Below, piece by piece: positions 5,321 through 62,194 of a DNA stretch of 64,000 nucleotides. Origin of the DNA: Trypanosoma brucei (Eukaryota); assembly GCA_000002445.1 (NCBI GenBank), contig CH464491.1:2464001-2528000 (forward strand). Reading direction: 5' to 3'. Below the pieces are notes generated by a model that saw only the letters and a list, made by a program, of their open reading frames with translations, was not told the origin of the DNA and made no database searches. Positions within the stretch are counted from its first letter, which is position 1, and every line of letters starts with the position of its first letter. The translations under genes and the position numbers were made by a program.

Positions 5321-5341
5321 ACCCCGCCTGCTGCTCGCATT

Positions 5342-22590: not shown

Positions 22591-22779
22591 TGGCGGCTTG
22601 CTAATTTTCCTTCAGCAAACTTCCACTTTTTCCCCTTCTACGCGGTGCTTACGGCCTGGGTAGAAAATTAACAAATCTGTGCAATCGTTAATTTATGCAT
22701 TAACGCATCATTTATGGAATAGTTACTACGTGGGGAAAACGGTGAATATGCTTTTTGGGTTGTTACTATTAGCTTTTTT

Positions 22780-22790
22780 GGGGGGGGGGG
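22780..22790. repeat. G11 homopolymer in spacer
   Basis: Direct count. Confidence 0.95.
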
Positions 22791-24039
22791 TGATCGCTTT
22801 AACGTAGGTAGAGTCGAGGCGAATGAATGGGTTGGTTTGGAAGAGGAGGAGAAGGAGAAGGAGAAAAGAAAAGAAAAAAAGAAATGCAAAGGGAAGTAGA
22901 AAAGGGAACCCCTTTGAGTTTGTTACTGAAGGGAAAATACATAAGAAAAAAAAAGAACAAGGAATGAAACGGTGCGATCGAGGAGGTAGAGAAGGAGTGA
23001 AGAGGAAAAGGAAAGAGGCTCTGAATGGATTTGTGCGGCTTTCGCGTAATTTCACGCGTGGTGCATAGAATAGAGTAGGATAGCGTTGCCGGTTGATCAC
23101 GTTATTTTTGTTTTTGGTCACAGGAAGTAACATACGCATGCGTGTATATGTGTAGGTGAGACGGTACAAGGTTAAAGTGGCGTTAGAAAGGTAACTCAAC
23201 GCCAAGTTTTATACATAATAATATAATCATGATGAGTGACGGAAAAAAAAAAGACGAGACGAAAACATGTTACACACCATTGCAATTGAGGAGGAGAGTT
23301 ACGTGTGGGAGGCGACATATAATGATGTGCAAAGCGCAGGCGAACATCCGTTTTTTCTTTTGTTCCAACGTCCCTTGACCCTTCCTTTCTTTTTTGAACT
23401 TCTCTCCCTACTACCATTACTATTATTTAAGTTTGTTCGCTAAGTCACGCTCTCACACGATTACCTGCCTCCCCCTGCCGCCGCAACAGCCTTTGGGTGG
23501 CAAGGCACATATATTTATTTTTAGAATTATTGTTGTAACGATTGTTATCACTATTTATTTTTTCTCCTAGCACTTTTTTAGCTTACTTTTTTTTCGTGTG
23601 TGTGTGTGTTTCTGAAGGTTTTCCTTGCTTTTTTCTTTTATTATCCTTCTTTTGTGCCCTTCTTTGGTTCATTTGTTTTTGTGTGTCTAAGTAACCCTTC
23701 ACAGGGGTTGGACAAAACGCTGCCAAACCCAGAGCAGAACTAAGAGAAATGAAATGTAAGTCAGAACGTTAATTATTAGGAAACCAATAAGCAACGCGTC
23801 GGTTACGGACGTACAATCATGTAGATATTTTTATGGCAAACTTCCTGTGAAACTTTGTGCGCTGATGTGTCATTTCCTTTATGCTTTCTTTTTTCCTATA
23901 GCATTGCCATGTTGCTCACTTCCATTCATCCAACCCCATTCGTCTTTTTTTTTAAAAAAAAGTGGTTTTTGTGAAAGCGCTGGTGTGCCTCCCCTTTGCT
24001 CGTATGTTTGTCTTTTACTTCTTTCGCCATCGAAAGGTT

Positions 24040-24071
24040 AAATAAATAAATAAATATATATATATATATAT
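24040..24071. repeat. compound microsatellite (AAAT)4(AT)n
   Basis: Direct reading. It has the same architecture as 733-784. Confidence 0.95.
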
Positions 24072-24451
24072 AACACATCAGATTGTTAATACTACTTGTG
24101 CACGTGCAATTACTTGGCAGAGCGCAAGCCGACGATGATAAATAAATCAACTACCTTTCATTTAGTCGGTTTCTAACGGCTGCGGTTACACTGCTAACTC
24201 TTGTGTATTGCAGTTTCCTTTGTTTTTGGTGCCGTGAACCTTTCTCTACTGCTTTCTTTTTCCCCCCTTCATTCCCCATGTTATCATGTCTTTATTGTGT
24301 ATTTGTTGCATACATTTGTGGTTTCTCTCAAACACCCACAAACCCTCACCTTGTTCCACCTTTTACTCCAGCTGCATACCCGTGCGCTCCCGCACTTCCA
24401 TCGGCACGTGCATCTCATCGATTATCCACAGGTGATGCGTTTGATGCACTA

Positions 24452-24867
24452 ACAGACCTTAGCGCAATCGAGGTATTGGTGTAAAGTCGGTCAATTGTAG
24501 GCGAGTATGCATCAGTGCAAGGGCTGACAAATATTTCCCTGCAGCTGCCATGTTCGGCTGCCCTTTTGATCATCCAAACGGGTCAGTTAAACCATAGAGC
24601 GTGAGACATGCGAATAAACGTAAAGCTTTGGAGGTATATCTCCGTTACACGCTGCCCATGTGATAGGATGGCGCCTGAATGGATAAGGAAAGCGAGCTGA
24701 TGGCAGGAAGAAATGTGAATCCCATTATTTGTTGTGTGGAAATTATATGTGGATGTGAGAGTGAGAGTGAGGTTGGTAAGTTGATAACTGTACGTGTGGC
24801 GGTGATACGACACCCCACTGAATAAGATGCTTCATCAGTATCTCCTTCCTCTTCATGCCAATTCAAA
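24452..24867. repeat. inverted-repeat arm A (416 bp), reverse complement of 52818-53233
   Basis: A line-by-line reverse-complement comparison gives 415/416 identity. The single mismatch is at 24556 (partner 53129). The identical 76-aa spurious ORFs at 24583-24813(-) and 52872-53102(+) in the ORF track confirm it. Homology breaks sharply at both ends. Confidence 0.97.
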
Positions 24868-24871
24868 CCAG
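24841..24871 (+). promoter_or_regulatory. polypyrimidine tract plus AG at the right end of IR arm A, a candidate trans-splice acceptor for the 24931 gene
   Basis: tctccttcctcttc (24841-24854) is followed by AG at 24870-24871, about 60 nt before the ATG at 24931. Confidence 0.4.
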
Positions 24872-24930
24872 CTGCATATATACGCCCGTCTGCGGAGTAG
24901 GAAACGCAAGAAAGAGAGACAAGAGACAAG

Positions 24931-26175
24931 ATGGGATGTCAACAAAGTGGAGTGCGAATGTCTCCTCAGGACCTTAGTGATCGCACTCCCAGTGGTCAAC
25001 ACGGGTTTACAGGGGATGCCAGCAACACGGCACTTCCCACTGTTCCAACAGACTCATGGTATGGTAAAAACTTTAGTGAAACATCACGTATGGCATTTAC
25101 CGAGTTTCACTTAAAGCAGCGGGGAAACATCGTTTTCGCCGGGACCCCCGTTCCTGTTGGCGCCTCGGAATTGGGTGAGTTCCCTGGCAACTCCCCACCG
25201 CTGCTCACAAGGGCAGTTATTGGCAAGGACAATGTGTACGGCATGGCGTACCTCTATAGCACTCCACTTTCCATTGAGCATCAGTGGAGACTGCGTGTAT
25301 GCCACTACCAAATAGCGTGTTCACCCTCTGGACAAACGCTAGGGGAAGTGCCGGGGGCGCTTTCTACACTTCCTGAGACCCCAACGACAGATGAGCAGAA
25401 AATCAGACTGTGGAACTTCGCTAAACAAGTCTACGACCGGCCGCTTTGCGACACTTTTGTTGGGATCAAAGTGTATGTTGACGGAGAGCTTGTGCCCGAC
25501 CGTTATCCGAGAGCCAAAAGTCTCCCAAACTGCACAGCTACACTCGAATCTAGTGAAGTGTTTAATAACTGGACCTGTGTTCCTTTTGTACTTGTTGGTT
25601 ACGTGAACAGTCCGATGATAAGTACTGTTACGATGTACAGGCACCTGTCCCTTAGCTTCGTTGAGTACTTGTTGGGCAAAACCATCACGGGTGGAGAAAC
25701 CGACAGAACAAAAGATGAAGAGGTGGCGGAATGTAAAGACGAGAATACCGTTGGGGATGGACGTAGTGTGGACGCGCCCGATAAGCCGAAGGAGGAGGTC
25801 ACCCAGTCTTTCAATGTTTCTGTAGAGGTTGTGTACGGTTGTGAGGCGGAGATGAATTTCTGCACAGCCCACATTGCGAAGGGGAACATAGAACTTGTTA
25901 TGGGAGAGCACTCAGACGCAGCTTTACGAAAATATAAGGCTTCACTTGAGGAGTTTCTTAGGAAAAGCGGCAACGAGCGTCATCAGGTAGTTGCGGTGGA
26001 TCCTTTGACACTCAAAGGGCGGAACTCGGCATTATGGACTTGTTTGTTTTGCGGGTCTCCCCTGCAGTTCACGTGTACGATTTGCGGCGCCGAGCTGTGT
26101 GGAATGTCTTCGTGTGTGTGGAAGCCCTTCACGGGGTATCCGCTTGGCTGCTCGTCTCATAAGGCGCAGGCGTGA
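24931..26175 (+). CDS. hypothetical protein with a dual-acylation-type N-terminus and a C-terminal Cys cluster, 414 aa
   Basis: ATG ORF. MGCQQSG has Gly2, Cys3 and Ser6. The C-terminus has a zinc-finger-like spacing, CLFCGSPLQFTCTICGAELCGMSSCVWKP...GCSSH. Confidence 0.7.
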   Translation: MGCQQSGVRMSPQDLSDRTPSGQHGFTGDASNTALPTVPTDSWYGKNFSETSRMAFTEFHLKQRGNIVFAGTPVPVGASELGEFPGNSPPLLTRAVIGKDNVYGMAYLYSTPLSIEHQWRLRVCHYQIACSPSGQTLGEVPGALSTLPETPTTDEQKIRLWNFAKQVYDRPLCDTFVGIKVYVDGELVPDRYPRAKSLPNCTATLESSEVFNNWTCVPFVLVGYVNSPMISTVTMYRHLSLSFVEYLLGKTITGGETDRTKDEEVAECKDENTVGDGRSVDAPDKPKEEVTQSFNVSVEVVYGCEAEMNFCTAHIAKGNIELVMGEHSDAALRKYKASLEEFLRKSGNERHQVVAVDPLTLKGRNSALWTCLFCGSPLQFTCTICGAELCGMSSCVWKPFTGYPLGCSSHKAQA

Positions 26176-27009
26176 GGGTGACTCCCCAAGTTTTTGAGAT
26201 TCAGTTTCTGTATACGTTTCGTTTCGGTGTTATCATTCACCATTACTACTGTTTTCTCAACATCAACCCACTGAGCACGGATGTGCATGTGGGGTATTGT
26301 ATGTCTCTGGGCACTGGCAACGACGCAGGGGGAACAAATGTCCGAACTGGCCGGCTGCATATTTGGCAGATTCGGCTCTACTAAAAATGACGCGAAATGC
26401 AAAAAGGGATATACGTTATCTCCGTACTAATCTTTGCGCCTCCTTACGTGGTGTCAGTTATGAAGCTAATCTGCCTACCGCCCCCCCCCTCTTCCATTGA
26501 AACCCCGGTGTATACTTTTCGTTTTCTTTGTACTTTTCCTTTACTTCTTTTGTTTGTATATTTTATAATAAGGAAGTGGCTAACCTGTTGCTTATGGAAG
26601 TCAGTCGCGTTTTGTGCATGCAACATTGTGCTTAAACTTCAAAAACATTAAAGATAAAATAACGCATTGCACATCCTTCTTTTGCTTTTAATATGGTGTT
26701 GCATCTTGCCGACTGTCCGCCAACCTCGTTTTGCGCCACCAGCCTGTTTTCATTCTTCTTTTCTTTTATGTGTGTGTTATACTTCTCATGCGTTGTTAAC
26801 ACCACTGTAGTTTTCCACCTGTAGGAAACGCCAGGTGCGCCACGGCATCCAAAGGGTTACTCAGCAGAAACCTTACAAGGAAGCCAATTGTCTAACACGC
26901 TGCTGTGGAGGTTTCTATCTGCACCATTTTCCATTCATACATATACGTATACCGATTTCTTTACCCGAATATTTATTTTAAAAAAAACCGTACTCGGGCG
27001 GTTCTTGAA

Positions 27010-29586: not shown

Positions 29587-30015
29587 TCTCTTGCCTATAC
29601 GCTTCCCTGCCCCGTTAAATAATGGGCTGTTGCTGGGCCTCTCCCGTTGCTACTCTTCCCTGTTGCCTCCAATGTACCCAAACACGCTCATCTCACTGTT
29701 GGAGCCGTACAATGTGCTTCCATCTGCTGCTAGTGACTGATAAGGTGGGACAGTCTGGCGGCACCTTTTTTCTATCTCTCTGCCGTGGCACGGCTGCTGT
29801 ACAGTTCGGGGTATCGATTTCTCATAGCGCATCTTTTTCTTTTTTTCAGAAACACCCCTCTGTTATTGCCATTTGTCGAACGAACTCTTACCTTCATATG
29901 CTATTAATCATTCTCTGGTCACAAGTTGACGAATTTCTAGGACAAGAGAACGACAGAAGTAGAGGTAAAAAGAAAAAGGTGACCGCGGCACTCTTCTCTT
30001 TGTGCATCGTGTAGC

Positions 30016-32022: not shown

Positions 32023-32729
32023 AGAACTCTAACATTACGTGAATCCACTGTTGTGATCACGCGAATAAAAACATTGATGATGGTGACACTTGAGCTACCG
32101 GTTAGCATACCGAGCGTGGAATTTCTTGGGTTGTGACTTCCGCATGCACGGAAGGATGGGCGCAGCATCATTGAGTCCAGAACGCGTGGGTTTGCGGCGA
32201 GTGGTTGACGCTAACAGAAATCATCACCGAGGTAACTTTTGAGAAGGATACAGAAGTTTGTTTGTGTGTGTGAAGCGTGGTGTCGCCACTGAGGATGTTT
32301 CTGGTGATACTTTCTGGCCACGAAAGGCTGATCCTTTTTATCGCCTAGTATTTCCATATTATTGATGACCGTTACTCTTCCCTTCACACAGGGTCACACA
32401 CGGCATATTCAATTCTTGAGTATAACAACTCTCACGCTTGCCTTCGTTTTCGTTATCATTCTTGATTATCCTGTGCATAGTACTAGGTAAGTAGAAGTCA
32501 GAATCAATTTCAGTGACTAGAATTGTTCCGTTTCCCACCTGTGGGAAAAGTTACCTATCCGTTAGGTTATATTCGCTTCGTTGTACATATACACAAGCAC
32601 TCGAACATTTTTATTTCGTTTTTGTTTTCAGGATAGTGTCGGTGTTTTGTTTTTACCTTTTCGAAGTTTAGTGGTATACTCTGTTGCTCACACTTTTGCT
32701 CGTGCGCACCTTTGAGTTCGCTTGGCTAA

Positions 32730-35021: not shown

Positions 35022-36096
35022 AATTTGAGGAAAGAAGGTGGGGAATAAAGAATGGAGGAAGGAAAGGGGGAGATAGGGACGATGTACGCAAGGTGGAGGT
35101 CGCTGCAGTAGTCACTGCGCTCGCTGTTACGAAGACAGCACGGGCAAGTGATTAACGGTCCAACTAACCGCACCCTTGAAGAGGGAAAACGATGGTAAGG
35201 GTTCCAACTTGTTTTGCTGCACTGCATGTACATATATACAAACTTAGAATTGTGCATGTATCTTGCATTCTTCGTATCTTTTTTGTGTACGTGCGCCTTC
35301 ACGTATCCCTCTCTTTTCCGTCTTCTTCTATCGCTCTGCATGTCCTCTCCTTTATTTTCGACGTGCCACGGGCGCTGTCAACCATTGGAAATGAATTCCA
35401 GCATATTATACGCAAACGCAAACATCCATTTCAGTTTGAATGGGCGGATTTTGGAGGGACGTGATCAGTCTTTTTATGTGTCTCGCAGTTCCGTACCCTT
35501 TCTCTCACACATTGCCGTGTTTTTTTTTGTGATTGCCTAACGTCTTTCAAAAAGGTGGAATTACGACACACGCAAAGGTGTGTCAAGGGTGGATATGAAG
35601 TTGAAGCAAGGGAAAGGAATGAGAATAAATGTAAAAGAGGTAACTGAAGCAGGTGGAGGTGTCTGTAGAAAGGGGGCGCACAACAAGTTGAACATGTGGA
35701 GTATCGTGAAGAATCCCAAAAGAAAACAAGAAAAAAAGAGGAAAACATTTCGCCCTTCTCTTCTTTTTATTTCCCCTCTCCTCCCTTGTTTCTCCTTCAT
35801 TTCAATAGGCTATCATAAAGAATCACTCCAGTTTATTTTTCCAGTGTTTCTGCTTCTTTTTCTGGCCCTTCTCTTCTCTTCTCTTCTCTTTTTTGCTTTT
35901 TTTCTTTTTTGTGTGAGCGATTGTTGTTATTATTGTTTTCATTACTTTCACTATCATCATCATTATTGACTCGTCCTTATTGGCGGTAAAGGACACCGTG
36001 AGAGAAGAGGGTGAATATTGTTAAAGTTGACGTAATTATGAGCCCTTCAGGAAGGATATTTCCCACCTTGTAGAATTTCATGGGAGTGTACTGTGC

Positions 36097-36114
36097 ATAT
36101 ATATATATATATAT
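36097..36114. repeat. (AT)9 microsatellite
   Basis: Direct reading. Confidence 0.9.
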
Positions 36115-37189
36115 GGATATGAATAAACATATTTATTACCTACGCAGTCCTGTTAGGCAATGTTTTGATTTGCTGCTGCTGTTGGCATTCCCCCTTCCAA
36201 CTCGATCGTGTGCCCGATTTCATCCCTCTAATTCACTTTCCCTTAAGGCTCATCTCACCTGTGACAGAGTGGGCGGCGCATGAAAATATTTTCCATTAAT
36301 TTTATATGGATGAGTTAAATTCTTTTGTTTCTGCATTTTGATTCTAGTTCGGGTGGGTTGGTGCGGTGCCACTTGTTGAAAGTGGGGTGAAGTATTTTTT
36401 TTTTAGGTTCGTAAACTGCGGCAACGACAGCAGTGACTTCATCATGAAAAGAATCCACTAGTGCGATTGTGACTGCGCGGCCCTTGTGACTTCGGGGCTG
36501 GCGGCACATAATTATCTCTACAGTTGTTTCATCGCATTGGTTTCCTTTTTTTTTCCTGGTTGCCATGGTGTTGGTGGTTCCCCGCACACACTTACCTTTT
36601 CGTTCGTTTTCACTTACTTCCTGCCATCGTGATATCGGTACTACATGAAAGAGGAGAGAGGAAATTTGGGGGGAAACTATGCGATTCTATTTTTGTGAAG
36701 AGCTGGCATTCTTCTTTTATATCGTCCCCTGTTCTGCATGCAGCTTTTCGCATATGCATAAGAGTTGAATGGTGCGGCGATGAGTCGAGAAAAGAAGGTT
36801 GGGGAAACAAAATAATCACGTGAAGGTTGGAAGGAAAAGGGAAAGGGCGGTGGAAGAAGAAACCTTAGAAGGAGAGAAGGCGATGGTAAGTGGCTTTCGA
36901 GAAGCGGAAAGCGACCTACCACGGGGGTAGGGAAATATTTTGTCCACTCTCACAGTTTTTTGTCTGCCTTGTGGTTTTTTTTAACTAGTTATTTTTTAAA
37001 AAGTAAATCACTTTTCAAAGTTGATTGCTTTTGCTCCTTCATTTGCATAATTTAGAACGTAAAGCCCCCACGACTGCTTAGAGAGAGTTCCTGTTGGAGC
37101 CACGAGACGGATGGGAAGGACAAGAAGGGTCGAAACCGTTCAGTGAATCGTACATCACACTTTCCATGATTGCATAGCCACGCACTCGT

Positions 37190-37213
37190 AAATATAAATA
37201 AATATATATATAT
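37190..37213. repeat. AAAT/AT compound microsatellite
   Basis: aaatataaataaatatatatatat read directly. Confidence 0.9.
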
Positions 37214-37453
37214 TTGCGCTTGCATATGCATATGCATAACCCCACTGAAAACACCTACTTGTGTAATTCACACCTCCAATACTTCCTACACCGCTTATAT
37301 TATTTTTTCCAATACTGCACACTTTGTGGCTTCTGTATTTATCACCTACCATTTGACTGTAGTAGTAAAGTACAGCACAGGGAAATAGTAAGGAGCGATA
37401 AGAGGAAAAACAGACGAGAGCACCGGTTTGTTGCAAGGTATAGCATCGATAGT

Positions 37454-37744
37454 ATGGGAGATTCTGAAGCCACTGCGGCTGCTGCTTTAGAGCAATCCAT
37501 GCGAAGTGGCCGGACCGTGGTTTATTATACTCACCCGCAGAAGCTTCCATCCACATCAAGGGGCCTAACCAATATCGTTTCTGGTGATCAGCAGGGCAGT
37601 GGGGCAGACAGTCGTCATTACAAACATGAAGAGGTTGTCGCGGCGGGTGATTTCTCTTTCCTCCCGTTCCCATCGTATTGTGGAAGGACAACCGCCAACA
37701 CGGTTCTCTACAAGCATTTTCTGTCTTTTGACGTCCACACATGA
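37454..37744 (+). CDS. tentative small ORF (96 aa) in an otherwise empty 3-kb spacer
   Basis: In-frame ATG (MGDSEATAAAALEQSMRSGRTVVYYTHPQKL...) inside track ORF 37214-37744, on the sense strand of the polycistron. It shows no recognisable homology, and an overlapping antisense ORF of similar length weakens the call. Confidence 0.25.
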   Translation: MGDSEATAAAALEQSMRSGRTVVYYTHPQKLPSTSRGLTNIVSGDQQGSGADSRHYKHEEVVAAGDFSFLPFPSYCGRTTANTVLYKHFLSFDVHT

Positions 37745-38086
37745 AGTGAATCTCTCAGATGCACGTTAAATCCTTCGCACGCACTTCCGCCGTTTCCACC
37801 TCACCAAATGACATCCCCCTTTGAGTTTGTCTTTCTGCTGTGTGCGCCCTTTTTTTTTTGTTGTCGCGGCAGCGGACACCTCCGAATGGTGGAAGATCCT
37901 CGGTTCCCGTGATGGTTACTAAACACCTTTCTTGCTCTCACCCTCCATTATTTGTCTTTAACTCTTTAGTATTTAGTGAAACTGCTGCAATTATTGTAAA
38001 TTACTGTCCCCCCCCCTTCGCTCACAACTGTTTGCTCGCTGAAATCGCTGCTGTCACTGCTACCCGGTTCGCACCGATAAAAGGGA

Positions 38087-49202: not shown

Positions 49203-49537
49203 CAAATAATCAACAAGGTGGAATCAGTGGAGACAATTTGGAGAGATAGTGCAGTACTGCGCCCTACTGAATTCGGGGTTGTTTCGTTATTATCGTTTAC
49301 GTTTCGTACGCATTTCTTGTTTGTCTTCGCTTTTTTTGGATATGCGTGATGTGGCGCGTCGTTTTCACACAGCCTTTTTCCCTAATGTTAGCCCTCCAAA
49401 CCCTCACCCCCTCAATCTGAAGAAAAAGAGAGGGGCTTTCGTATCCTCAGGACTCGACCGCAAGTATGTCTTTAATTTTTTTTTGTATCATCCCTCATCC
49501 GTTCACCCGCACAAAGTGTTCCAAGGTGTCGATCATC

Positions 49538-50731
49538 ATGCAGATGTTGGCCCCTGGTGCTTTCTTCAACGCATTAAAGGTCCGGGGGGTTACACACTTT
49601 TTTGGAGTTCCTGACCCCATTCTAAAATATTTCTGTGCCTTCGTGGCAAGTCACACGACACCGAAGGAACACATCATCACAGCAAACGAAGGGAATGCAG
49701 TGGCCATGGCTGCAGGTTACCATCTTGCAACTGGGGGACTCCCTTTGGTGTACATGAAAAACAGTGGCTTAGGCGATGCACTCAATCCCCTGATCTCTCT
49801 CACACACGCTGAGGCGTGCAGCATTCCCATGTTTATAGTCGTTGGTTGGCGAGGAGCTCCTGATGCTGGAAATGAGCTACCGTGTGCCGCAGAAGGGCGC
49901 TTGACCGAAGGAATCCTACGTGCTGCTGAGGTCCCGTATATCATTTTATCTTCTGCTTGTGGAAACGGGGAGCAGTCGATGGAAACAGCTCTGGATATGG
50001 CACTGAAGCACGTGCATAATTCAAGGACGCCCTATGCCTTTTTGGTACCACCAAACTTTTTTGAGGAATGCGCTTACGAAGGGGTTGGAGAAGGTATTGC
50101 TGAGCTTCCCATGACTCGCAGGGAGGCGGTTGAACAAGCACTGCGCCAAATAGACCGGGGAGATATAGTTGTGGGCGCCGCAAGCTTCCTTGCTCGTGAA
50201 ATCTTTGAAGTTCAGGAGTGTGCCGGGATGCGACACGGCCCACAATTCTTCCCAGTCGGCAGCATGGGTCATTGTTCTTCCGTAGCAGCGGGTATAGCAT
50301 TGGCCAAACCAGAAAGGCAAGTGTTTTGCTTTGATGGAGATGGCGCATTCCTTATGCACATGGGTTCATCAGCAACCATCGGCGGTGTAGCCGCCATACA
50401 TTTAATAGGTACGGGCGAAACTTCCCTCATGCGCAACTACAAACATGTCGTTTTCAACAACGGATCCCACGATTCGGCAGGTGGTCAACCCACTGTGTCT
50501 TTTGATGTATCCCTCACGCAAGTGGCGAGTGCGTGTGGTTTTAGGACTGTCCGCGAAGAACCCGTAATGGACCTTGGCGAAACTGTGCGGGCCCTTCAGG
50601 AATTAAAGAAGGCGGAAGGGCCCGCGTTCTTGGAAGTATTTGTGCGAAGGGGCGGCCATTCAAACCCACAATGTGAACTTCCCTCTTTAGATGAGAGCAA
50701 ACAAGCTCTCACTAACTGCTTGAGGGGCTAG
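49538..50731 (+). CDS. thiamine-diphosphate enzyme, phosphonopyruvate decarboxylase-like (about 397 aa)
   Basis: The first ATG at 49466 lies in pyrimidine-rich sequence, and homology begins at ATG 49538 (MQMLAPGAFFNALKVRGVTHFFGVPDPILKYF). ANEGNAVAMAAGYHLATGGLPLVYMKNSGLGDALNPLISL is collinear with bacterial Ppd/AepY as recalled. The C-terminal ThDP motif is GDGAFLMHMGS...NNGSHDSAGGQP. Confidence 0.8.
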   Translation: MQMLAPGAFFNALKVRGVTHFFGVPDPILKYFCAFVASHTTPKEHIITANEGNAVAMAAGYHLATGGLPLVYMKNSGLGDALNPLISLTHAEACSIPMFIVVGWRGAPDAGNELPCAAEGRLTEGILRAAEVPYIILSSACGNGEQSMETALDMALKHVHNSRTPYAFLVPPNFFEECAYEGVGEGIAELPMTRREAVEQALRQIDRGDIVVGAASFLAREIFEVQECAGMRHGPQFFPVGSMGHCSSVAAGIALAKPERQVFCFDGDGAFLMHMGSSATIGGVAAIHLIGTGETSLMRNYKHVVFNNGSHDSAGGQPTVSFDVSLTQVASACGFRTVREEPVMDLGETVRALQELKKAEGPAFLEVFVRRGGHSNPQCELPSLDESKQALTNCLRG

Positions 50732-50810
50732 TAATATCAGAGTACGCGGAGGGTGAGAAACGGCATATATGTGGATCAACACCTCGTTTGAGCGCTATTA
50801 AACGGGTATC

Positions 50811-50821
50811 GGGGGGGGGGG
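50811..50821. repeat. G11 homopolymer in the Ppd-COQ2 spacer
   Basis: Direct count. Confidence 0.95.
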
Positions 50822-51132
50822 ACCTGTGGGGAAACAAAAGAGGAAGTCGCTTTATTTTCTCACAATCAAACCCAAACAATTTGGTAGTACCAATGGAAAG
50901 GGAGGAGGAGCGAGTGAACGCAAGTAGTGAAGTAGAAGGGATGAACCCAACCAACAAGTCAAATGTTATCTTCCACTGTTACCCCTCATCTCTCTAGTAA
51001 GTGACGCTCCGACGTGGCTGGGGTGAAGACAGAAGTTCTGCTCCGTACCGGCTGAAGTGCGTAGGAAAGGCAAAACTAACAAGCATTTCTCAAGCGGCCC
51101 GCAATAGAAACATCGCTGAAAAGAAAGGGGGA

Positions 51133-52605: not shown

Positions 52606-52817
52606 TGTCAAGACATGCTGCTAGCAGAGGGGAACATGGAAAAGCAACTGCGACTTGTGGGATTTGTCTTCATTGGACGGTCTGGGATTTGTTACTGAAA
52701 GAAGGTAAGAGATGGTTCAACAGCAGTCAAATAAACAAAATATATATATGTACATCGTTACCCCCCGCTCCCTCTCTACCCCCATTTTTCAGCACGGTCA
52801 GAAATACATGTGTCTGT

Positions 52818-53233
52818 TTTGAATTGGCATGAAGAGGAAGGAGATACTGATGAAGCATCTTATTCAGTGGGGTGTCGTATCACCGCCACACGTACAGTTA
52901 TCAACTTACCAACCTCACTCTCACTCTCACATCCACATATAATTTCCACACAACAAATAATGGGATTCACATTTCTTCCTGCCATCAGCTCGCTTTCCTT
53001 ATCCATTCAGGCGCCATCCTATCACATGGGCAGCGTGTAACGGAGATATACCTCCAAAGCTTTACGTTTATTCGCATGTCTCACGCTCTATGGTTTAACT
53101 GACCCGTTTGGATGATCAAAAGGGCAGCAGAACATGGCAGCTGCAGGGAAATATTTGTCAGCCCTTGCACTGATGCATACTCGCCTACAATTGACCGACT
53201 TTACACCAATACCTCGATTGCGCTAAGGTCTGT
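52818..53233. repeat. inverted-repeat arm B (416 bp), reverse complement of 24452-24867
   Basis: See arm A. It lies in the spacer between the COQ2 stop (52605) and the next ATG (53432). Confidence 0.97.
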
Positions 53234-53431
53234 ATGTGCTTGCAAGAATACTTTTTTTAGTAAACTACTCCGCTTCTCTTTTCATCTTTTTTTTTTGTGT
53301 CTCATTTTACCAGGTTACGGAGTAGGAGACTGATTGGGCCCACCATTGCGGAGATTATACATATCCTCGCTTCGCTGTGAGTCTGAAAGGGGACTCGGGT
53401 AACTTGTGAACACACAAGCCTCCTTTTTGAC

Positions 53432-55294: not shown

Positions 55295-56293
55295 GGTTTA
55301 CTCTCTTTTGTTATTCACTAGAAGGATATGTGTAGTATATATTTCCCTATGTGAGTCGCTTATTTGCATACCGGTGAAGCGGTTCCTTATGGTGTCAGCG
55401 CCGATGCAGCAACACACGCCAAGACGACACCGCTCTGGTCGCTGGTGCTTTTTTTTTTTTTACTTCTATTTTTCTTTGCCCTCTGCGGCTACCAAAGGAG
55501 CCATCACAATTAGCAAAGGTAGAACTTAGTTGGCCGTACGGCGGGAAAGGTTGTGTGGTAGAATTGGTGTTGAATGTCCGGTGTTTTTCCAATATGTACG
55601 ATGCCGCGCAGAGGCGCAGTGAACCAGCAAAACTGTGGGGGACAAAAAGGAATATACTGATCTGCAAAAGGTCTCGGCTGACGTTTTACCACTTTTTGTG
55701 TACGGATGCGCCGAGACCGAGGTTGCAGTAAAACGTGGCACATAGGGAAAACGACAAAGAGCAATGCGAGCAGCCCCAATTGCAGGTCGCAGGCGCTCTA
55801 AGAAATAAAAGGAAGAGAATAGTGAGCAAGGCAATTCGGAAGCGTGGACCGGCGGGAAGTGCTCCGCGAGGAAAAAAAAATAAAGGCACGACTCAACAAA
55901 TCCACCTAAAAGTGCGGAGGAGAGCAGGATGGAATACATCAACTGCAACATTTATGGAACACAACACCAAGTCCAATTGCTTCCTGAAACAATTTTTTGG
56001 CGCTTGTGTAGAAAAGTGGAGCTGGAGCGGTGGAAACTCGCATGTGACTACATACTGCGATAAGTCATTAGTGAAAGGGAATTTGGGGTGGAGAGTGCAT
56101 ATGGGCAAAAATAGGTTTCCACAACAATTAAACACAAGATTGTTGATTGTTAGCAGTCGTCGCACTACCCGCTTGTGTGCAACAACTTGGCTGTGATATG
56201 GAAATGCTGTGAGCCGACGAGGTCGGGGGAGCGGATGCCAGTTTGGGGGGGCGAATCCCTTTCTTGATTTCCTCTGCCTGGCGCAAGAATGCA

Positions 56294-56313
56294 CCCCCCC
56301 CCCAAAAAAAAAA
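56294..56313. repeat. C10A10 homopolymer pair
   Basis: Direct count: C at 56294-56303 and A at 56304-56313. Confidence 0.95.
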
Positions 56314-56459
56314 GAAAACAGCTGGGGAAGCCGAGAAACACCACTGCCCAGGAGAGTATCAACGAGAAAGACAATCTCGCAAGGTTTAAATCCGACTAAT
56401 AACATTGTTGACAGCAACCCCTTTCTGATGTTCAGCAATTGTAATGTGTCTCTCGGCCC

Positions 56460-56474
56460 GGGGGGGGGGGGGGG
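56460..56474. repeat. G15 homopolymer at the skew switch point of the strand-switch region
   Basis: Direct count. Confidence 0.95.
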
Positions 56475-58008: not shown

Positions 58009-58806
58009 TTATTCAAGTTCGCAAAGGATGCTTCGCTCCCAGCTTCCATCGATCGACAAGTCAACAAGCTCCGTGTTAACAACACTCTCCTGCTGCTGCA
58101 TACTCAAAAGAAAATGATGGAGCAAGCGAGGTGCGATAACGTGGGGAGTCGGCTCTGCCCCGCTCAATCCTCGTAGCCGGAGTTCCTCCACTAAAGACGT
58201 CGCTGCTTCGTTCGGCATCTCGCACATAACGATATCGTTGAAGTAAAGCAGATTATTACTCACATTCAGTCCCGCACCATGCATAGAGACCCAATTCCCC
58301 AGTTGAAGCCCGACGAACCCCATCTTTCGTGGTGCCACATCTCCCCAACTGTCGGACCAAACCCCAACCCTCCCTCGATGGGCGGGGATGTTGTATTCGC
58401 CCGCTACGTTAATCATAGCCTGTTCCAACACGGAACTAAACCACTCAATTGGGGAACGTGGTTTGTCAGAAGCCGTGCATTGCTTCCACAGAACCTGCAC
58501 GTTAACAATGGGGTACATAGTTACCTGCCCTGGTCCATGGAATGTGACGCCCCCTCCCCTCCTCGTCTTGACCACCTCGGCGGCACAACCCGCTTTGATG
58601 CCATTGGAAGTGTCTCGCCTGCCAATCGTGTAAACAGGAGACGAATGTTCCACAAGCAAAACAACGTTGGGGATGAGGCGAGCAGATTTGTCTCCACGAA
58701 TGTAGCGCATCTGCCTATCGATTTTCTTTCGAAAAATTGCCTCTTGCAGCCGCAGAACATCGTGGTAACGACGGCTTCCAAGGTTATACGCCCGCATTCC
58801 ATTCAT
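58009..58806 (-). CDS. LIPB: lipoyl(octanoyl) transferase LipB, 265 aa
   Basis: ATG ORF on the - strand. It carries the LipB signature RRGGGVTFHGPGQVTMYPIV, a downstream RKMGFVGLQL (lysine region), and the overall LipB length. Confidence 0.85.
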   Translation of the reverse strand: MNGMRAYNLGSRRYHDVLRLQEAIFRKKIDRQMRYIRGDKSARLIPNVVLLVEHSSPVYTIGRRDTSNGIKAGCAAEVVKTRRGGGVTFHGPGQVTMYPIVNVQVLWKQCTASDKPRSPIEWFSSVLEQAMINVAGEYNIPAHRGRVGVWSDSWGDVAPRKMGFVGLQLGNWVSMHGAGLNVSNNLLYFNDIVMCEMPNEAATSLVEELRLRGLSGAEPTPHVIAPRLLHHFLLSMQQQESVVNTELVDLSIDGSWERSILCELE

Positions 58807-59142
58807 AAGAGGGGGGGACTACATTATTCAAAAAATAAAACATGAAAGTGCGAATGAAAGAGAGAAATGAAGCGCAAGAATCAAAGGTTGGTAATGCAGC
58901 ACACCCCTCAACCCCGGAATGTAAGGAGAATTTTAGCGGTTGTTGGTGTCTTCTTCAATTTACATCGTAATATATGCACATCTATCCTCGTTTTTAGAGA
59001 ACCAAAGGCCACGCCATAATCACCCTCCTTATGTGTTTCTATCATCTTCCTCCTTCATAATTCTCTCTAGAACATAGACAAGTTCCGACATCCAAGGCTG
59101 ACGCGACGACACTCAACATCTAATTGATCATTACCACTTGCC

Positions 59143-61806
59143 TCAATCCCTGCTTCCTTCACTGCCTCGCCCACTGATATCCTCAGTTCCTGACCTTTTC
59201 ATCGCTTCACTGGCTTGGTCACTGCCAATCTCCTCAGCATCTACTTTTGCTGCTTCACTGGTTTGCTTACTCTCCGTGTCCTCGGTGTCTGGATCTTTTG
59301 CTGCTTCGCTTGTTCTCTCACTCGCACCTTCTGTACCAGACCTTTTCATCGCTTCACTGGCTTGGTCACTGCCAATCTCCTCAGCATCTACTTTTGCTGC
59401 TTCACTGGTTTGTTTACTCTCCGTGTCATCGTTGTCTGGATCTTTTGCTGCTTCGCTCGTTTTCTCATTCGCATCCTCTGTATCAGATGGCTTCCGCGCT
59501 TCACTTGTCCATTCACTGTCAATCTCCTCAGTGTCCGCCTCTTTTGCTGTTTCGCTTATCTGTTTACTGCCAATCTCCTCAGTCTCCGCCTCTTTTGCCG
59601 CACCACTCGCCTCGTTGCCTTCAATATCCCCGGTATCTGGATCTTTTGCTGCTTCACTGGCTTGTTTACTGCCAATCTCCTCAGCATCTTCTTCTTTTGC
59701 TGCTTCGCTCGTTTTCTCATTCGCATCCTCCGTATCAGATGGTTTCCCCGCCTCACATGACTGCTCGTCCCCAAACTGTTCATCGGCATATTCTTCATTG
59801 GCAACCTCCTGTGCGGCGCCTTCCTCATCCGCATTGGCACCTCCATCGGCAACAGCGTCCTCAGCAGCGACAGTGTCTTGCGCAATAGGAGGTTCTGTGA
59901 CTTGCCCCTCCTCAACCTCAACGTCACCTTCTCCACCAGCCCCATTCTCAACTGCAGAACGGGAGTGTTGGCTTGTGGAACCCTCGTGCAAACGCGAGGC
60001 GCTACCACCGGGGGCGCCCTCAGCGTGTTCACCCTTTGGAGCCTCAACACCACTGGTACTTCTCATACGCCCAACTGAAGAGGCGGAAGGAGGTGCCCCT
60101 GAGCCACCAAAGTTGTTTTGAGTTGCAACGGATGGCAGGGACAGCTCATGTCCCAGTCCGAGGGAACGTTCGTAGAGGGCAATTATGTCGGCTGAGGCGG
60201 ACAGTTTATCTTCATCTTCGCAGATTCGTTTAGCGTATGGTTCGAGTACTTGCCTGAATTGTTCATCCCCAACATTCTCAACAAACTCCAGCACAAGATG
60301 ATTATCTGACGCCTCTTTCACGTTGAATTTCGTGAACCACGGGGTTAAAACAGTGAACACTCCATTTTCGCCCGTTTCTTCAAGTTGGATCACGTTGGGA
60401 ATCCCACAAATCTCCACCTTAAAGGCAGCCTCCGTTTCTCCACTCGAAGAGAGTCGGCTGAGAGGCGGTAAAACAACTTGGCCTCCTTCCTTGGCGTTCT
60501 CGATCTGGTTCACTTGGCCGGCCTCATCACAACAATAATAAAACGGTTTAGCGTCAGTCACTTCTGACGTGCAGTGGCAGATGACTGTATATGCGAGTGT
60601 GGGGTAGTTTTTGAGTAGCGTACCCCCTGCCAACTCATCCGCCAATTCCTGCCGCACTCCAGTAAGTTCCTCAAGTTTGTCACCGTTGCATGATATCAGG
60701 AGTTGAGCCAGTTTAGCGTAAGCAATGCTTCCAGACGGATATTTCTCTGCCGCAGCGTGACACATAATGTGAATATTTTCCGCAGCGACGTTGCAACCGC
60801 TCAGATAAGCTTCCACAGTGGGTAAATCGGCGACAAGAGCCAGAGCGTCCTCCGCATCCTTCTCCGCCTCCTCACATGACATGAGAACGAACCGGCTGTT
60901 ACCCGAGCCATCCGGCTGTATTGCCAAGACTCGATGCCATATCTCCGGTTTCCATTCTGTACGGGCATCGCAGTGGGAACTGAGCACATTGACGAAGCTC
61001 CCAGTTAGTGCGGTGTCGTCTGCGGGCTGGTCCCCAGACGCCTTGCGTTTGCCGCTATCAGCGGGTGTTTCTTCGCTCTTGCTCAAGAAAGGGAAGACGT
61101 TGATAAAAGCCGTCTCTATCGCCTGACCGGCAGTCCACTTGTCGAGTGCACTGACGCTTACTTTATCACCATCAACACCGATAACCTCCGCAAGAGTACT
61201 CTCCTCTTTAGCAGAGAGAGGCCTGGCCGTCCCGACGTGCTCAAGTATGGCACGCATAAAGGACTCCCAGAAGACTTCAGACTCCCCTTCACCAAAGTAA
61301 CGCCCCCAAAAGTCAAGCAATGGCTTGCTTTCCGTGCACTCCTTGGCGGGTTTTTGGGAGCGGCACAGCTCAATAACGTAATTGATTATCTTGGGTGTGT
61401 TAATGCCCTCTATAGAGGTACGTTTCCTGCCTTCTTTAAAAAATACAAAGTAAGACTTCGATTTTCCGCGCCGGCTCTCAAGGATATCCTTCCAGAACGG
61501 TGCCAAGGATTCTCGAAACTTTACCTTGTCATCTGTTTTCATGTGCTGATGGTGCTCCTCTGTCTGGTCAATGCTCTCGAGAATGGAGTTGCACTCCACG
61601 GAGAGAAAACGAAGATACGCCTGATCAGAAGCGTCCATTTGCAAGCGCCTAAAGGTCTCAGACAGCGCCTTGCTAAGTCCCCACTCGGAACTGTACACAT
61701 CTAGTACCGCCACCCCATGTTGCTCATGTATAAGCCGAAGCTCCTGCTCCAGTTTCACGGCATTTGTGATGTCCTGTACAATTTCTGTGCGGTTTTGCTG
61801 TTGCAT
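59143..61806 (-). CDS. hypothetical protein with a thioredoxin-like N-terminal segment (no CxxC) and an acidic repetitive C-terminus (about 887 aa)
   Basis: The track start at 61824 is TTG; the first ATG is 61806 (MQQQNRTEIV). VAVLDVYSSEWGLSKALSETFRRL resembles a thioredoxin-fold strand-helix but lacks the redox Cys pair. The C-terminal 200 aa are SEAAK/DTE/EEIGS repeats. Confidence 0.7.
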   Translation of the reverse strand: MQQQNRTEIVQDITNAVKLEQELRLIHEQHGVAVLDVYSSEWGLSKALSETFRRLQMDASDQAYLRFLSVECNSILESIDQTEEHHQHMKTDDKVKFRESLAPFWKDILESRRGKSKSYFVFFKEGRKRTSIEGINTPKIINYVIELCRSQKPAKECTESKPLLDFWGRYFGEGESEVFWESFMRAILEHVGTARPLSAKEESTLAEVIGVDGDKVSVSALDKWTAGQAIETAFINVFPFLSKSEETPADSGKRKASGDQPADDTALTGSFVNVLSSHCDARTEWKPEIWHRVLAIQPDGSGNSRFVLMSCEEAEKDAEDALALVADLPTVEAYLSGCNVAAENIHIMCHAAAEKYPSGSIAYAKLAQLLISCNGDKLEELTGVRQELADELAGGTLLKNYPTLAYTVICHCTSEVTDAKPFYYCCDEAGQVNQIENAKEGGQVVLPPLSRLSSSGETEAAFKVEICGIPNVIQLEETGENGVFTVLTPWFTKFNVKEASDNHLVLEFVENVGDEQFRQVLEPYAKRICEDEDKLSASADIIALYERSLGLGHELSLPSVATQNNFGGSGAPPSASSVGRMRSTSGVEAPKGEHAEGAPGGSASRLHEGSTSQHSRSAVENGAGGEGDVEVEEGQVTEPPIAQDTVAAEDAVADGGANADEEGAAQEVANEEYADEQFGDEQSCEAGKPSDTEDANEKTSEAAKEEDAEEIGSKQASEAAKDPDTGDIEGNEASGAAKEAETEEIGSKQISETAKEADTEEIDSEWTSEARKPSDTEDANEKTSEAAKDPDNDDTESKQTSEAAKVDAEEIGSDQASEAMKRSGTEGASERTSEAAKDPDTEDTESKQTSEAAKVDAEEIGSDQASEAMKRSGTEDISGRGSEGSRD
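59192..59747 (-). repeat. coding tandem repeat: two 147-bp units (59192-59338, 59339-59485) plus degenerate related copies to about 59747
   Basis: Direct comparison of the two units shows only a handful of substitutions. The encoded 49-aa unit is SEAAKDPDxxDTESKQTSEAAKVDAEEIGSDQASEAMKRSGTE... Confidence 0.9.
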
Positions 61807-62184
61807 TACCACGCAGTAAAACAAGACACTTATAAGTCAACTGCAGTAAACCTTCTAAGCACTGCACCGTGGAGGGATGTGCGTCGAAGAATTGCGGGGG
61901 AAACGGTAGGAAAGAGATAGTCGAAAGGGGTTGCGGAACATGATAAGCACAGAAAGAATACTGAAATCGGCATTTTTTTGTCAGAGGGGAAAGGAAAAAG
62001 AAAAAGAAAATTTCCCTCCCAGACACATGGAAGATAACTAAATAATACTGATAACAACGAGACACACAACGCACAGTAATCACCAGCGTTTTTCTTCCTT
62101 CCCTTGGCATGGTTCGGTTCCACCCCACATAGATTTCGCATTCAATAAAAGAAAAAAAGAAAACATCATCAATCTTTCCCCCTC

Positions 62185-62194
62185 GGGGGGGGGG
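62185..62194. repeat. G10 homopolymer in spacer
   Basis: Direct count. Confidence 0.9.

What the first reader, a model, noticed from the sequence alone, without database searches (positions are those of the whole stretch)
22780..62194. Homopolymeric G or C runs of 9 or more confined to intergenic spacers
The runs are G11 (22780-22790), C9 (26481-26489), C9 (38008-38016), G11 (50811-50821), C10 (56294-56303), G15 (56460-56474) and G10 (62185-62194). I saw none inside a called CDS. Seven such runs in 64 kb of roughly 50% GC sequence is far more than chance would give. They may act as processing or termination punctuation or as G4-forming elements. They may equally be slippage-prone sites and therefore sequencing or assembly error hotspots.
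Basis: seen in the sequence. Interest (0 to 1): 0.25.

Follow-up and report, generated by a model that had tools for sequence, protein, structure and literature searches.

The report
Slippage-prone G/C tracts between trypanosome genes
The seven long G or C runs are real and sit only between genes of Trypanosoma brucei chromosome 11, but they behave like ordinary length-unstable single-base repeats, a feature of this parasite's genome that is already documented.

Summary
All seven runs are at the stated coordinates, and the window has no other G/C run of 8 or more. All lie in the 30% of the window that is non-coding. Null models expect 0.03-0.9 such runs; 7 are seen. The window is T. b. brucei TREU927 chromosome 11: one long + strand gene array meeting a - strand array at about 55.3-58.0 kb.

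Confinement to spacers is not special to G/C: all 21 A/T runs of 9 or more are non-coding too. Every one of the seven tracts differs in length in at least one other T. brucei-group assembly (for example G11/G10/G7/G9). Instability rises with tract length equally for A/T and G/C. Coding tracts of 7-8 nt never vary.

Where the window has G15, two other strains have a 127-128 bp segment bounded by shorter G tracts, and a third has an assembly gap.

On the transcribed strand the runs are G, C, C, G, C, with no consistent position, so RNA-processing punctuation is not supported. G-quadruplex potential exists at motif level only.

Published work already reports 65-75-fold over-representation of (G)10/(C)10 and nucleosome exclusion in T. 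brucei.

Verdict: mononucleotide microsatellites. Already known, low interest.

The parts
22780..22790 (+). G11 tract, G on the sense strand. It lies 189 nt after the stop codon of CDS 21166-22590, so it is probably in that gene's 3' UTR, within a 2340-nt spacer. A variable T tract abuts it.
   Evidence: Lengths: TREU927 G11, gambiense G11 (neighbouring T tract T12 instead of T6), four Logan contigs G10. G4Hunter 1.80.
26481..26489 (+). C9 tract, C on the sense strand. It lies 305 nt after the stop of CDS 24931-26175 and 520 nt before the ATG of the ZFK kinase gene. It forms the 5' part of a 15-nt pure-pyrimidine stretch.
   Evidence: Lengths: TREU927 C9, gambiense C10, equiperdum OVI C11. G4Hunter -2.08.
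38008..38016 (+). C9 tract, C on the sense strand. It lies 70 nt before the ATG of CDS 38087-39769, at the end of a 3065-nt spacer, inside a 13-nt pyrimidine stretch. A T10-containing tract lies 150 nt further upstream.
   Evidence: Lengths: TREU927 C9, gambiense C9, OVI C9, equiperdum IVM-t1 TC7.
50811..50821 (+). G11 tract, G on the sense strand. It lies 79 nt after the stop of CDS 49466/49538-50731, so it is probably in a 3' UTR. Together with its neighbours it forms a canonical G4 motif at 50804-50831.
   Evidence: Lengths: TREU927 G11, gambiense G10, IVM-t1 G7, five Logan contigs G9. G4Hunter 2.24.
56245..56251 (+). It is the first member of the tract cluster in the convergent strand-switch region, and the cumulative GC-skew maximum falls at 56251.
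   Evidence: Lengths: G7 in TREU927 and OVI, G12 in gambiense, G8 in IVM-t1. Skew maximum.
56294..56313 (+). Composite C10-A10 tract in the convergent strand-switch region. It lies 999 nt after the last + strand CDS and about 1.7 kb after the last - strand CDS.
   Evidence: Lengths: C10A10 in TREU927, C10A13 in gambiense, C9A12 in IVM-t1, C10A12 in OVI.
56460..56474 (+). G15 tract in the convergent strand-switch region. On its own it is a minimal canonical G4 motif. The site is structurally polymorphic.
   Evidence: In gambiense and IVM-t1 the same flanks enclose 128 or 127 bp, running from CGGT-G7 to G9 or G10. OVI has 27 N followed by G16. The extra segment occurs nowhere else in the sequence held.
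58811..58817 (+). G7 tract of the same class (C on the sense strand), in the spacer between the two - strand genes 58009-58806 and 59143-61806.
   Evidence: Lengths: G7 in TREU927 and OVI, G10 in gambiense, G8 in IVM-t1.
62185..62194 (+). G10 on the + strand, which is C10 on the sense (-) strand. It lies 104 nt after the stop of CDS 62299-62835 and 378 nt before the ATG of CDS 59143-61806. It is the 3' end of an 18-nt pure-pyrimidine stretch that is followed by an AG.
   Evidence: Lengths: G10 in TREU927, G11 plus AGG in gambiense and IVM-t1, G13 in OVI. No G/C tract in the syntenic T. vivax or T. cruzi spacers.

Best explanation
The runs are poly(dG.dC) mononucleotide microsatellites in the non-coding spacers of Trypanosoma brucei chromosome 11.

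Proposed mechanism:
1. Once a homopolymer passes about 7-8 nt, replication slippage adds and removes units quickly. This step is inferred from the observed dependence of polymorphism on tract length.
2. As a result, tracts drift between roughly 7 and 16 nt among closely related strains. This is shown.
3. Inside coding sequence such changes cause frameshifts and are removed by selection, so long tracts survive only between genes. The absence of long tracts from CDS and the invariance of 7-8 nt tracts within CDS are shown; the selective cause is inferred.

The tracts have physical side-effects. They exclude nucleosomes (published) and they match motifs that form G-quadruplexes on naked DNA. Nothing found here indicates that they were selected as RNA-processing or termination signals.

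The G15 run is one allele of an unstable, G-tract-bounded site that also exists as a version about 113 bp longer.
For: - All seven tracts, plus two G7 tracts, differ in length between TREU927, gambiense DAL972, equiperdum IVM-t1, equiperdum OVI and Logan short-read assemblies, while the flanking sequence is conserved.
- Length differences depend on tract length and not on base. For A/T the fractions of comparisons that differ are 0.005, 0.008, 0.11 and 0.74 at 4, 5-6, 7-8 and 9+ nt. For G/C they are 0, 0, 0.33 and 0.5.
- Tracts of 7-8 nt inside CDS differed in 0 of 18 comparisons, against 6 of 23 in non-coding DNA (Fisher p = 0.02).
- A/T runs of 9 or more are confined to non-coding DNA as well.
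- There is no sense-strand bias and no fixed position relative to stop or start codons.
- Syntenic T. vivax and T. cruzi spacers lack these tracts.
- The tracts are reproducible within a lineage, so they are not read errors.
- Genome-wide over-representation in T. brucei 427 is already tabulated: (G)10 858 times (65-fold), (C)10 978 times (75-fold), (A)10 9854 times, (T)10 9390 times (PMC5359979, Table S1).
- In Leishmania major, G-tracts of 10 nt or more are described as 'peppered throughout the genome' (PMC2679053).
Against: - The G and C run-length spectra in the non-coding DNA look bimodal: no C tract of 7-8 nt and no G tract of 8-9 nt, then seven of 9-15 nt. That could hint at selection for long tracts. 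But n is small, and the same sites move between 7 and 12-13 nt in other strains.
- Some length differences between assemblies may be assembly error rather than real polymorphism. IVM-t1 is, from my own recollection, a long-read assembly, and OVI contains gaps.
- Three tracts cluster within 230 nt at the GC-skew switch of the convergent strand-switch region. Published BG4 ChIP finds about 5-fold enrichment of G4s at termination sites. Some functional use at that one site is therefore not excluded.
- A neutral origin does not rule out that the tracts have been put to use for keeping spacers free of nucleosomes.
Confidence: 0.78

Rival explanations
1. The tracts are selected chromatin elements. 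Rigid poly(dG.dC) excludes nucleosomes and keeps specific points in the spacers open, for example near polyadenylation or splice sites or near replication origins.
For: - Oligo-d(G.C) runs longer than 7 bp are 'strikingly absent' from T. brucei nucleosomes (PMC5359979).
- Replication origins map to intergenic regions of low nucleosome occupancy with strand-specific G4s nearby (PMC13179062).
- Every tract remains present, at 7 nt or more, in every strain where the site is covered.
Against: - A/T tracts do the same job and are about ten times commoner genome-wide.
- Positions within spacers are scattered, from 0.08 to 0.98.
- Lengths drift freely.
- The tracts are absent from syntenic T. vivax and T. 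cruzi spacers.
- Retention across about 1-2% sequence divergence says nothing about selection.
Confidence: 0.12
2. The cluster G7 / C10A10 / G15 at 56245-56474 marks the meeting point of the two converging transcription units. It would act as a pausing or termination element for RNA polymerase II, or as a boundary between replication and transcription, through G-quadruplex or hairpin formation.
For: - The cumulative GC-skew maximum falls at 56251, inside the cluster.
- G15 is one of only two canonical G4 motifs in the 64 kb.
- C10 and G15 form an 18-nt inverted repeat that is 83% complementary.
- G4 ChIP and G4-seq peaks are enriched 3-5-fold at T. brucei termination sites (PMC13316426).
Against: - This is a single locus. 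The chance that a 230-nt cluster lies this close to the switch within a 2.7 kb region is roughly 0.2, and the tracts themselves contribute to the skew curve.
- The region folds no better than shuffles, z = +0.34.
- The element is not structurally conserved even within T. brucei. G15 is replaced by G7, about 108 nt of other sequence, then G9-10 in two strains, and C10 and A10 vary in length.
Confidence: 0.07
3. The three tracts that read as C on the sense strand (26481, 38008, 62185) are working parts of the polypyrimidine tracts that direct trans-splicing of the downstream gene and polyadenylation of the upstream gene.
For: Each lies within a pure-pyrimidine stretch of 15, 13 or 18 nt upstream of an AG and of the next ATG. 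The tract at 62185 is followed by an AG within 3 nt.
Against: - Every one of these spacers also has T-rich pyrimidine tracts as long or longer that lie closer to the ATG: 26753-26767, 37847-37859 and 62010-61983 (28 nt).
- Two other in-unit tracts read as G on the sense strand, so the class as a whole cannot be explained this way.
- From my own knowledge, not tested here, U-rich tracts are the efficient trans-splicing signals in T. brucei.
Confidence: 0.1
4. The runs, or their exact lengths, are sequencing or assembly artefacts of the reference genome.
For: - OVI has an assembly gap at the G15 site.
- TREU927 lacks about 113 bp that is present in two other assemblies at that site.
- Length calls differ between assemblies made with different technologies.
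Against: - A tract is present at every site in every assembly that covers it.
- Independent short-read assemblies agree with one another: five give G9 and four give G10.
- OVI shows G16 next to its gap, which supports a genuine long-G allele.
- The G15 junction lacks the CGGT that a simple collapse between the G7 and G9 tracts would leave behind.
Confidence: 0.03

Closest known systems
Mononucleotide (poly-G/poly-C) microsatellites of eukaryotic non-coding DNA
   Same: Uninterrupted homopolymers of 9 nt or more. Their length instability rises steeply above about 7-8 nt. Their flanks are conserved. They are excluded from coding sequence, and individual tracts are not conserved in more distant species.
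   Different: Nothing essential differs. T. brucei carries relatively many G/C tracts: published over-representation is 65-75-fold for (G)10 and (C)10. One site, G15, also shows a larger indel bounded by G tracts.
G-tracts (10 nt or more) of Leishmania major, described at RNA polymerase II initiation regions (Thomas et al. 2009, PMC2679053)
   Same: Long G or C homopolymers in a related kinetoplastid with the same polycistronic genome layout. They are explicitly described as 'peppered throughout the genome' and as insufficient to direct transcription initiation.
   Different: In Leishmania the tracts were noticed because of their association with TBP/SNAP50 peaks at divergent strand-switch regions. 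None of the seven tracts here is at a divergent region: five lie inside transcription units and two lie in a convergent region.
Nucleosome-refractory oligo-d(G.C) and oligo-d(A.T) runs in T. brucei (Maree et al. 2017, PMC5359979)
   Same: The same organism and the same sequence class. Runs longer than 7 bp are absent from nucleosomal DNA, and genome-wide counts are tabulated.
   Different: That study did not examine length polymorphism or per-site behaviour. The present work adds a strain comparison for one 41-kb stretch.
In-vitro G-quadruplex sites of T. brucei (G4-seq, Marsico et al. 2019, PMC6486626; re-annotated in PMC13316426)
   Same: The G4-seq K+ peaks are 66% intergenic. In this window the only canonical G4 motifs are two of these runs, and all seven pass G4Hunter 1.57.
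   Different: Whether these particular coordinates score in G4-seq could not be checked. In chromatin (BG4 ChIP) intergenic G4s are depleted to 0.05-0.14-fold. Five of the seven runs do not meet the canonical four-tract motif.
Bacterial contingency loci (phase-variable poly-G/poly-C tracts, for example in Neisseria, Haemophilus and Campylobacter; from my own knowledge)
   Same: The underlying chemistry is the same: slipped-strand mispairing at G/C homopolymers changes tract length at high frequency.
   Different: In bacteria the tracts sit inside reading frames or between promoter elements and switch genes on and off. Here they avoid reading frames completely, and no link to any gene's expression is evident.

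Membership tests
Mononucleotide microsatellite | Uninterrupted single-base run at or above the slippage threshold of about 8-9 nt | tested here: met
   Seven runs of 9-15 nt.
Mononucleotide microsatellite | Length polymorphism at orthologous sites among close relatives, increasing with tract length | tested here: met
   All seven vary between assemblies. The fraction of comparisons that differ is 1% or less at 6 nt or shorter, 11-33% at 7-8 nt and 50-74% at 9 nt or longer.
Mononucleotide microsatellite | Depletion from coding sequence, and constraint on the tracts that do occur within it | tested here: met
   None of 7 G/C runs and none of 21 A/T runs of 9 or more is coding. CDS tracts of 7-8 nt differed in 0 of 18 comparisons, against 6 of 23 in non-coding DNA.
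Mononucleotide microsatellite | Individual tracts not conserved in distant relatives (turnover) | tested here: met
   The syntenic T. vivax locus has no G/C run of 8 or more. The T. cruzi loci have only a C8 and one C9 elsewhere. This covers only the region around 58-64 kb.
G-quadruplex-forming sequence | Canonical motif of four G3+ tracts with loops of 1-7 nt | tested here: inconclusive
   Met by 2 of the 7 runs (50804-50831 and G15). The other five fail it.
G-quadruplex-forming sequence | G4Hunter score at or above the threshold used for T. brucei (1.57, window 25) | tested here: met
   All seven score between 1.60 and 2.24 in absolute value. The threshold comes from PMC13179062.
G-quadruplex-forming sequence | Experimental G4 signal (G4-seq or BG4 ChIP) at these coordinates | not testable with these tools
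The published class-level result is that intergenic G4s are seen in vitro but are depleted in chromatin.
RNA polymerase II termination-region element (convergent strand-switch region) | Located where two converging transcription units meet | tested here: inconclusive
   Two of the seven runs, plus one G7 tract, lie in the convergent region, at the GC-skew switch at 56251. The other five lie inside transcription units.
RNA polymerase II termination-region element (convergent strand-switch region) | Recurrence at other termination regions, and coincidence with H3.V / H4.V / base J | not testable with these tools
   No other T. brucei strand-switch regions and no ChIP tracks could be retrieved.
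Trans-splicing polypyrimidine tract | Pyrimidine run on the sense strand, upstream of an AG and of the downstream ATG | tested here: inconclusive
   Met by the three tracts that read as C on the sense strand. Not met by the two that read as G. Competing T-rich tracts lie nearer each ATG.
Trans-splicing polypyrimidine tract | Being the tract used at the mapped spliced-leader addition site | not testable with these tools
   No splice-site maps are available here.
Kinetoplastid initiation-region G-tract (Leishmania type) | [quoted passage not shown] | tested here: not met
   The window holds no divergent strand-switch region. The gene array runs on the + strand to 55294 and on the - strand from 58009, which is a convergent arrangement. 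Internal start regions cannot be excluded without ChIP data.

The most novel reading that the evidence does not exclude
The tight cluster of G/C tracts at 56245-56474 (G7, C10A10 and G15) lies exactly at the compositional switch of the convergent strand-switch region. It could be a functional boundary element, nucleosome-free and G4-prone, where converging RNA polymerase II complexes or replication forks are halted. On this reading its G-tract-bounded indel of about 113 bp and its assembly gap are consequences of the breakage and repair that such an element provokes. If G/C tracts proved to be systematically centred on skew switches at convergent regions genome-wide, that would give trypanosome transcription termination a sequence component, which is currently lacking.
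Probability: 0.07. Interest if true: 0.5.

Novelty: already known. Interest (0 to 1): 0.12.

Why it matters
There is little new biology here. The work shows that an eye-catching sequence pattern is the expected footprint of slippage in non-coding DNA combined with selection against frameshifts in coding DNA, in a genome where this pattern has already been tabulated.

The practical value is modest but real:
- These tracts, and G15 in particular, are places where T. brucei assemblies disagree, so they should be treated as unreliable for variant calling.
- They dominate motif-based G-quadruplex predictions in the gene-dense chromosome cores. In this window they supply both canonical motifs and seven of the 25 G4Hunter regions. 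This may help explain why in-vitro and motif-based G4 maps are mostly intergenic while chromatin maps are not.
- They could serve as hypervariable markers for strain typing.

Tried and rejected
- **tRNA and Rfam scans of the whole window:** nothing found, so the runs do not flank RNA genes.
- **ORFs overlapping runs:** 22726-23139(-) and 55893-56405(-) are low-complexity with no Pfam hit, so I rejected them as genes.
- **Exact-protein look-ups:** two window ORFs returned nothing. For one of them (49466-50731) my ORF start differs from the annotated start. I got round this with homolog searches and a cluster look-up.
- **Hairpin or cruciform between C10 and G15:** the pairing appears in the minimum-energy fold, but the region is no more stable than shuffled sequence (z = +0.34). 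Rejected as evidence of structure.
- **Simple deletion between the G7 and G9 tracts as the origin of G15:** this does not fit, because TREU927 lacks the CGGT that should remain. The direction of the event is unresolved without an outgroup.
- **The extra 128-bp segment as a mobile element:** it has no other copy in any sequence I hold.
- **Deep conservation:** T. vivax and T. cruzi loci lose synteny just beyond the lipoate-ligase gene, where RHS and reverse-transcriptase genes appear. The strand-switch region itself therefore cannot be compared. No T. congolense contig was available.
- **Higher-order Markov nulls (orders 4-5):** these partly learn the runs themselves, expecting 2.5-3.6, so they are not informative.
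- **Siegel et al. 2009 (Genes Dev):** I recall that it reports G runs at T. brucei start sites. The paper is not held, so the point remains an unverified recollection and I did not rely on it.
- **Apparent bimodality of the G/C length spectrum:** not pursued as evidence of selection. The sample is small, and G7 tracts in this strain are G10-12 in others.

Full report
**Origin of the window.** The window comes from Trypanosoma brucei brucei TREU927, chromosome 11.
- Its RPN2 protein is 99% identical to the T. brucei entry, and its PX-domain kinase is 100% identical to T. b. brucei ZFK.
- Ten ORFs match annotated TREU927 proteins letter for letter (accessions within EAN79877-EAN79891), on a contig of 5,261,801 bp.
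- The layout is typical of a kinetoplastid. There are nineteen intronless genes on the + strand from 909 to 55294, then genes on the - strand from 58009 onward. The two arrays therefore meet in a convergent strand-switch region of 2.7 kb.
- No tRNA gene and no Rfam family is present.

**The observation.** All seven runs are at exactly the stated coordinates, and there is no other G or C run of 8 or more.
- Coding sequence makes up 70.4% of the window. All seven runs fall in the remaining 18.9 kb. The probability of that under random placement is 2e-4.
- The two small ORFs that overlap runs are low-complexity and match no protein family.
- The consecutive accession numbers of the annotated genes leave no room for an unrecognised gene in the long spacers that hold runs.
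- Markov models of order 0 to 3 trained on the non-coding DNA expect 0.03 to 0.9 such runs, against 7 observed.

The pattern is not specific to G and C.
- Twenty of the 21 A or T runs of 9 or more are also non-coding. The exception, T9 at 49476, lies upstream of the start codon annotated in T. b. gambiense.
- Long homopolymers of every base are excluded from reading frames in this window.

**Comparison with other strains.** I retrieved orthologous DNA from T. b. gambiense DAL972, T. b. equiperdum IVM-t1 and T. equiperdum OVI, plus short-read assemblies of a further lineage (Logan, runs ERR79291xx). Tract lengths are given below; a dash means the site is not covered.

| Window site | TREU927 | gambiense | IVM-t1 | OVI | Logan |
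|---|---|---|---|---|---|
| 22780 | G11 | G11 | - | - | G10 |
| 26481 | C9 | C10 | - | C11 | - |
| 38008 | C9 | C9 | TC7 | C9 | - |
| 50811 | G11 | G10 | G7 | - | G9 |
| 56294 | C10A10 | C10A13 | C9A12 | C10A12 | - |
| 62185 | G10 | G11 (+AGG) | G11 (+AGG) | G13 | - |

- Every tract varies somewhere.
- Two tracts that are only G7 in the window belong to the same class. The one at 56245 is G12/G8/G7 in gambiense, IVM-t1 and OVI, and the one at 58811 is G10/G8/G7.
- The Logan contigs agree with each other: five give G9 and four give G10. The tracts are therefore genuine and do not collapse on re-sequencing.

**Control over all homopolymers.** I applied the same comparison to every homopolymer in the 41 kb covered by the other strains. 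The table gives the fraction of strain comparisons in which the length differs.

| Tract length in window | A/T | G/C |
|---|---|---|
| 4 nt | 0.005 | 0 |
| 5-6 nt | 0.008 | 0 |
| 7-8 nt | 0.11 | 0.33 |
| 9+ nt | 0.74 | 0.5 |

- Instability depends on length, not on which base is repeated.
- Tracts of 7-8 nt inside coding sequence never changed (0 of 18 comparisons). Non-coding tracts of the same length changed in 6 of 23 (Fisher p = 0.02).
- This is the signature of slippage combined with selection against frameshifts. It explains both the excess of long runs and their confinement to spacers.

**The G15 site.**
- In gambiense and IVM-t1 the same flanks enclose 128 or 127 bp. The segment begins CGGT-G7 and ends in G9 or G10.
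- That segment occurs nowhere else in the sequence I hold.
- In OVI the site is a 27-N assembly gap followed by G16.
- G15 is therefore one allele of a structurally unstable site bounded by G tracts.
- A simple collapse between the two G tracts would leave CGGT behind, and TREU927 lacks it. The history of the site is therefore unresolved.

**Tests of a functional role.**
- *Strand and position.* On the transcribed strand the five runs inside transcription units read G, C, C, G, C. Their relative positions within the spacers range from 0.08 to 0.98.
- *Sense-strand G runs.* Both lie 79 and 189 nt after a stop codon, so they are probably in 3' UTRs. That placement is an inference from typical UTR lengths, which I know from memory.
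- *Sense-strand C runs.* All three lie inside pure-pyrimidine stretches of 13-18 nt. Each of those spacers also has T-rich tracts as long or longer that lie nearer the ATG.
- *Other species.* The syntenic T. vivax locus has no G/C run of 8 or more, and T. cruzi has mostly long T tracts in the equivalent places.
- *Structure.* The strand-switch segment folds no better than shuffled sequence (z = +0.34).
- *Conclusion.* None of this supports RNA-processing punctuation.

**G-quadruplex potential.**
- The only two canonical G4 motifs in the 64 kb, on either strand, are 50804-50831 and G15. All seven runs pass the G4Hunter threshold of 1.57 used for T. brucei (threshold).
- Published G4-seq places 66% of the K+ peaks in T. 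brucei intergenic DNA. BG4 ChIP finds intergenic G4s depleted to 0.05-0.14-fold in chromatin, with about 5-fold enrichment at transcription start and termination regions (PMC13316426).
- These runs are therefore likely to score on naked DNA. Whether they form G4s in the cell is doubtful, except possibly at the strand-switch region.

**The one suggestive positional fact.** The cumulative GC-skew maximum of the convergent region falls at 56251. That is inside the 230-nt cluster formed by G7, C10A10 and G15. This is a single locus, the prior chance is roughly 0.2, and the cluster is not structurally conserved among strains. I keep it as the low-probability novel reading.

**Prior knowledge.**
- Maree et al. 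2017 tabulate counts for T. brucei 427: (G)10 858 times (65-fold over expectation), (C)10 978 times (75-fold), (A)10 9854 times and (T)10 9390 times. They also report that oligo-d(G.C) runs longer than 7 bp are strikingly absent from nucleosomes (PMC5359979).
- At the genome rate, 64 kb should hold 4.6 (G/C)10 settings. The window has 12, six of them from G15 alone.
- Thomas et al. 2009 describe G-tracts of 10 nt or more in Leishmania major as peppered throughout the genome and insufficient for transcription initiation (PMC2679053).
- The phenomenon is therefore already known. This analysis adds a per-site strain comparison showing that the tracts are ordinary, fast-evolving mononucleotide microsatellites.

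**Verdict.** The slippage reading is supported. The signalling reading is not supported, apart from an untested possibility at the strand-switch cluster. Novelty: already known. Interest: low.

Noticed in passing
window 24446-24871 and 52814-53239: A 426-bp dispersed repeat, 99.1% identical, in inverted orientation. One copy lies 60 nt upstream of CDS 24931 and the other about 190 nt upstream of CDS 53432. It is also present in gambiense and equiperdum. All six Logan short-read contigs of that region end at window 52847, inside this repeat. Its nature is not determined.
   Followed up: partly
L001 (T. b. gambiense) 2534-10798, against window 58009-61806: Gambiense carries a tandem duplication of the unit formed by the 887-aa repeat-containing gene and the lipoate-ligase gene. 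Its called genes are 987 aa, 217 aa LplA, 777 aa and 265 aa LplA. TREU927, OVI and IVM-t1 show a single copy.
   Followed up: no
window 59181-59760, inside CDS 59143-61806 (-): The 887-aa protein of unknown function holds tandem repeats of 147 nt (49 aa) with sub-repeats of about 48-51 nt. They account for the extreme local GC and TA skew at 59.0-60.0 kb.
   Followed up: no
window 18465-18669, inside CDS 14882-20590 (+): A 36-nt (12-aa) tandem repeat, 5.7 copies at 91% match, inside the 1902-aa protein that has no Pfam match.
   Followed up: no
window 49466-49537: The longest ATG ORF of the thiamine-pyrophosphate enzyme gene is 421 aa, but gambiense annotates 397 aa. The extra 24 codons contain a T9 tract that is T8 in IVM-t1 and in the Logan contigs. 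The upstream ATG is therefore almost certainly not the real start.
   Followed up: partly
window 50732-51132: The 401-nt spacer upstream of the UbiA prenyltransferase gene, which holds G11, contains no pure pyrimidine stretch of 10 nt or more. That is unusual for a trans-splicing acceptor region.
   Followed up: no
window 1-908: The left end of the window is AT-rich (GC 0.448 over the first 2 kb). It is packed with A and T runs (A10 at 14, T12 at 303, A9 at 374, T9 at 397, T9 at 707) and an (AT)n array at 735-784. This is a large spacer or a unit boundary that runs off the window.
   Followed up: no
window 55526-55951 (-): Gambiense annotates a 141-aa hypothetical gene on the - strand inside the convergent strand-switch region (L001 12975-13400). 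The gap in TREU927 accession numbering (EAN79890) suggests the same annotation there. The ORF has no Pfam match and lies on the side of the skew switch where the + strand reads as sense, so it may be spurious.
   Followed up: partly
window 35022-38086: A 3.07-kb spacer with no consistently annotated gene. Gambiense calls a 230-aa - strand ORF there, while equiperdum calls a 96-aa + strand ORF. The spacer is dense in pyrimidine tracts at 35.3-36.7 kb and AT-rich (GC 0.436).
   Followed up: no
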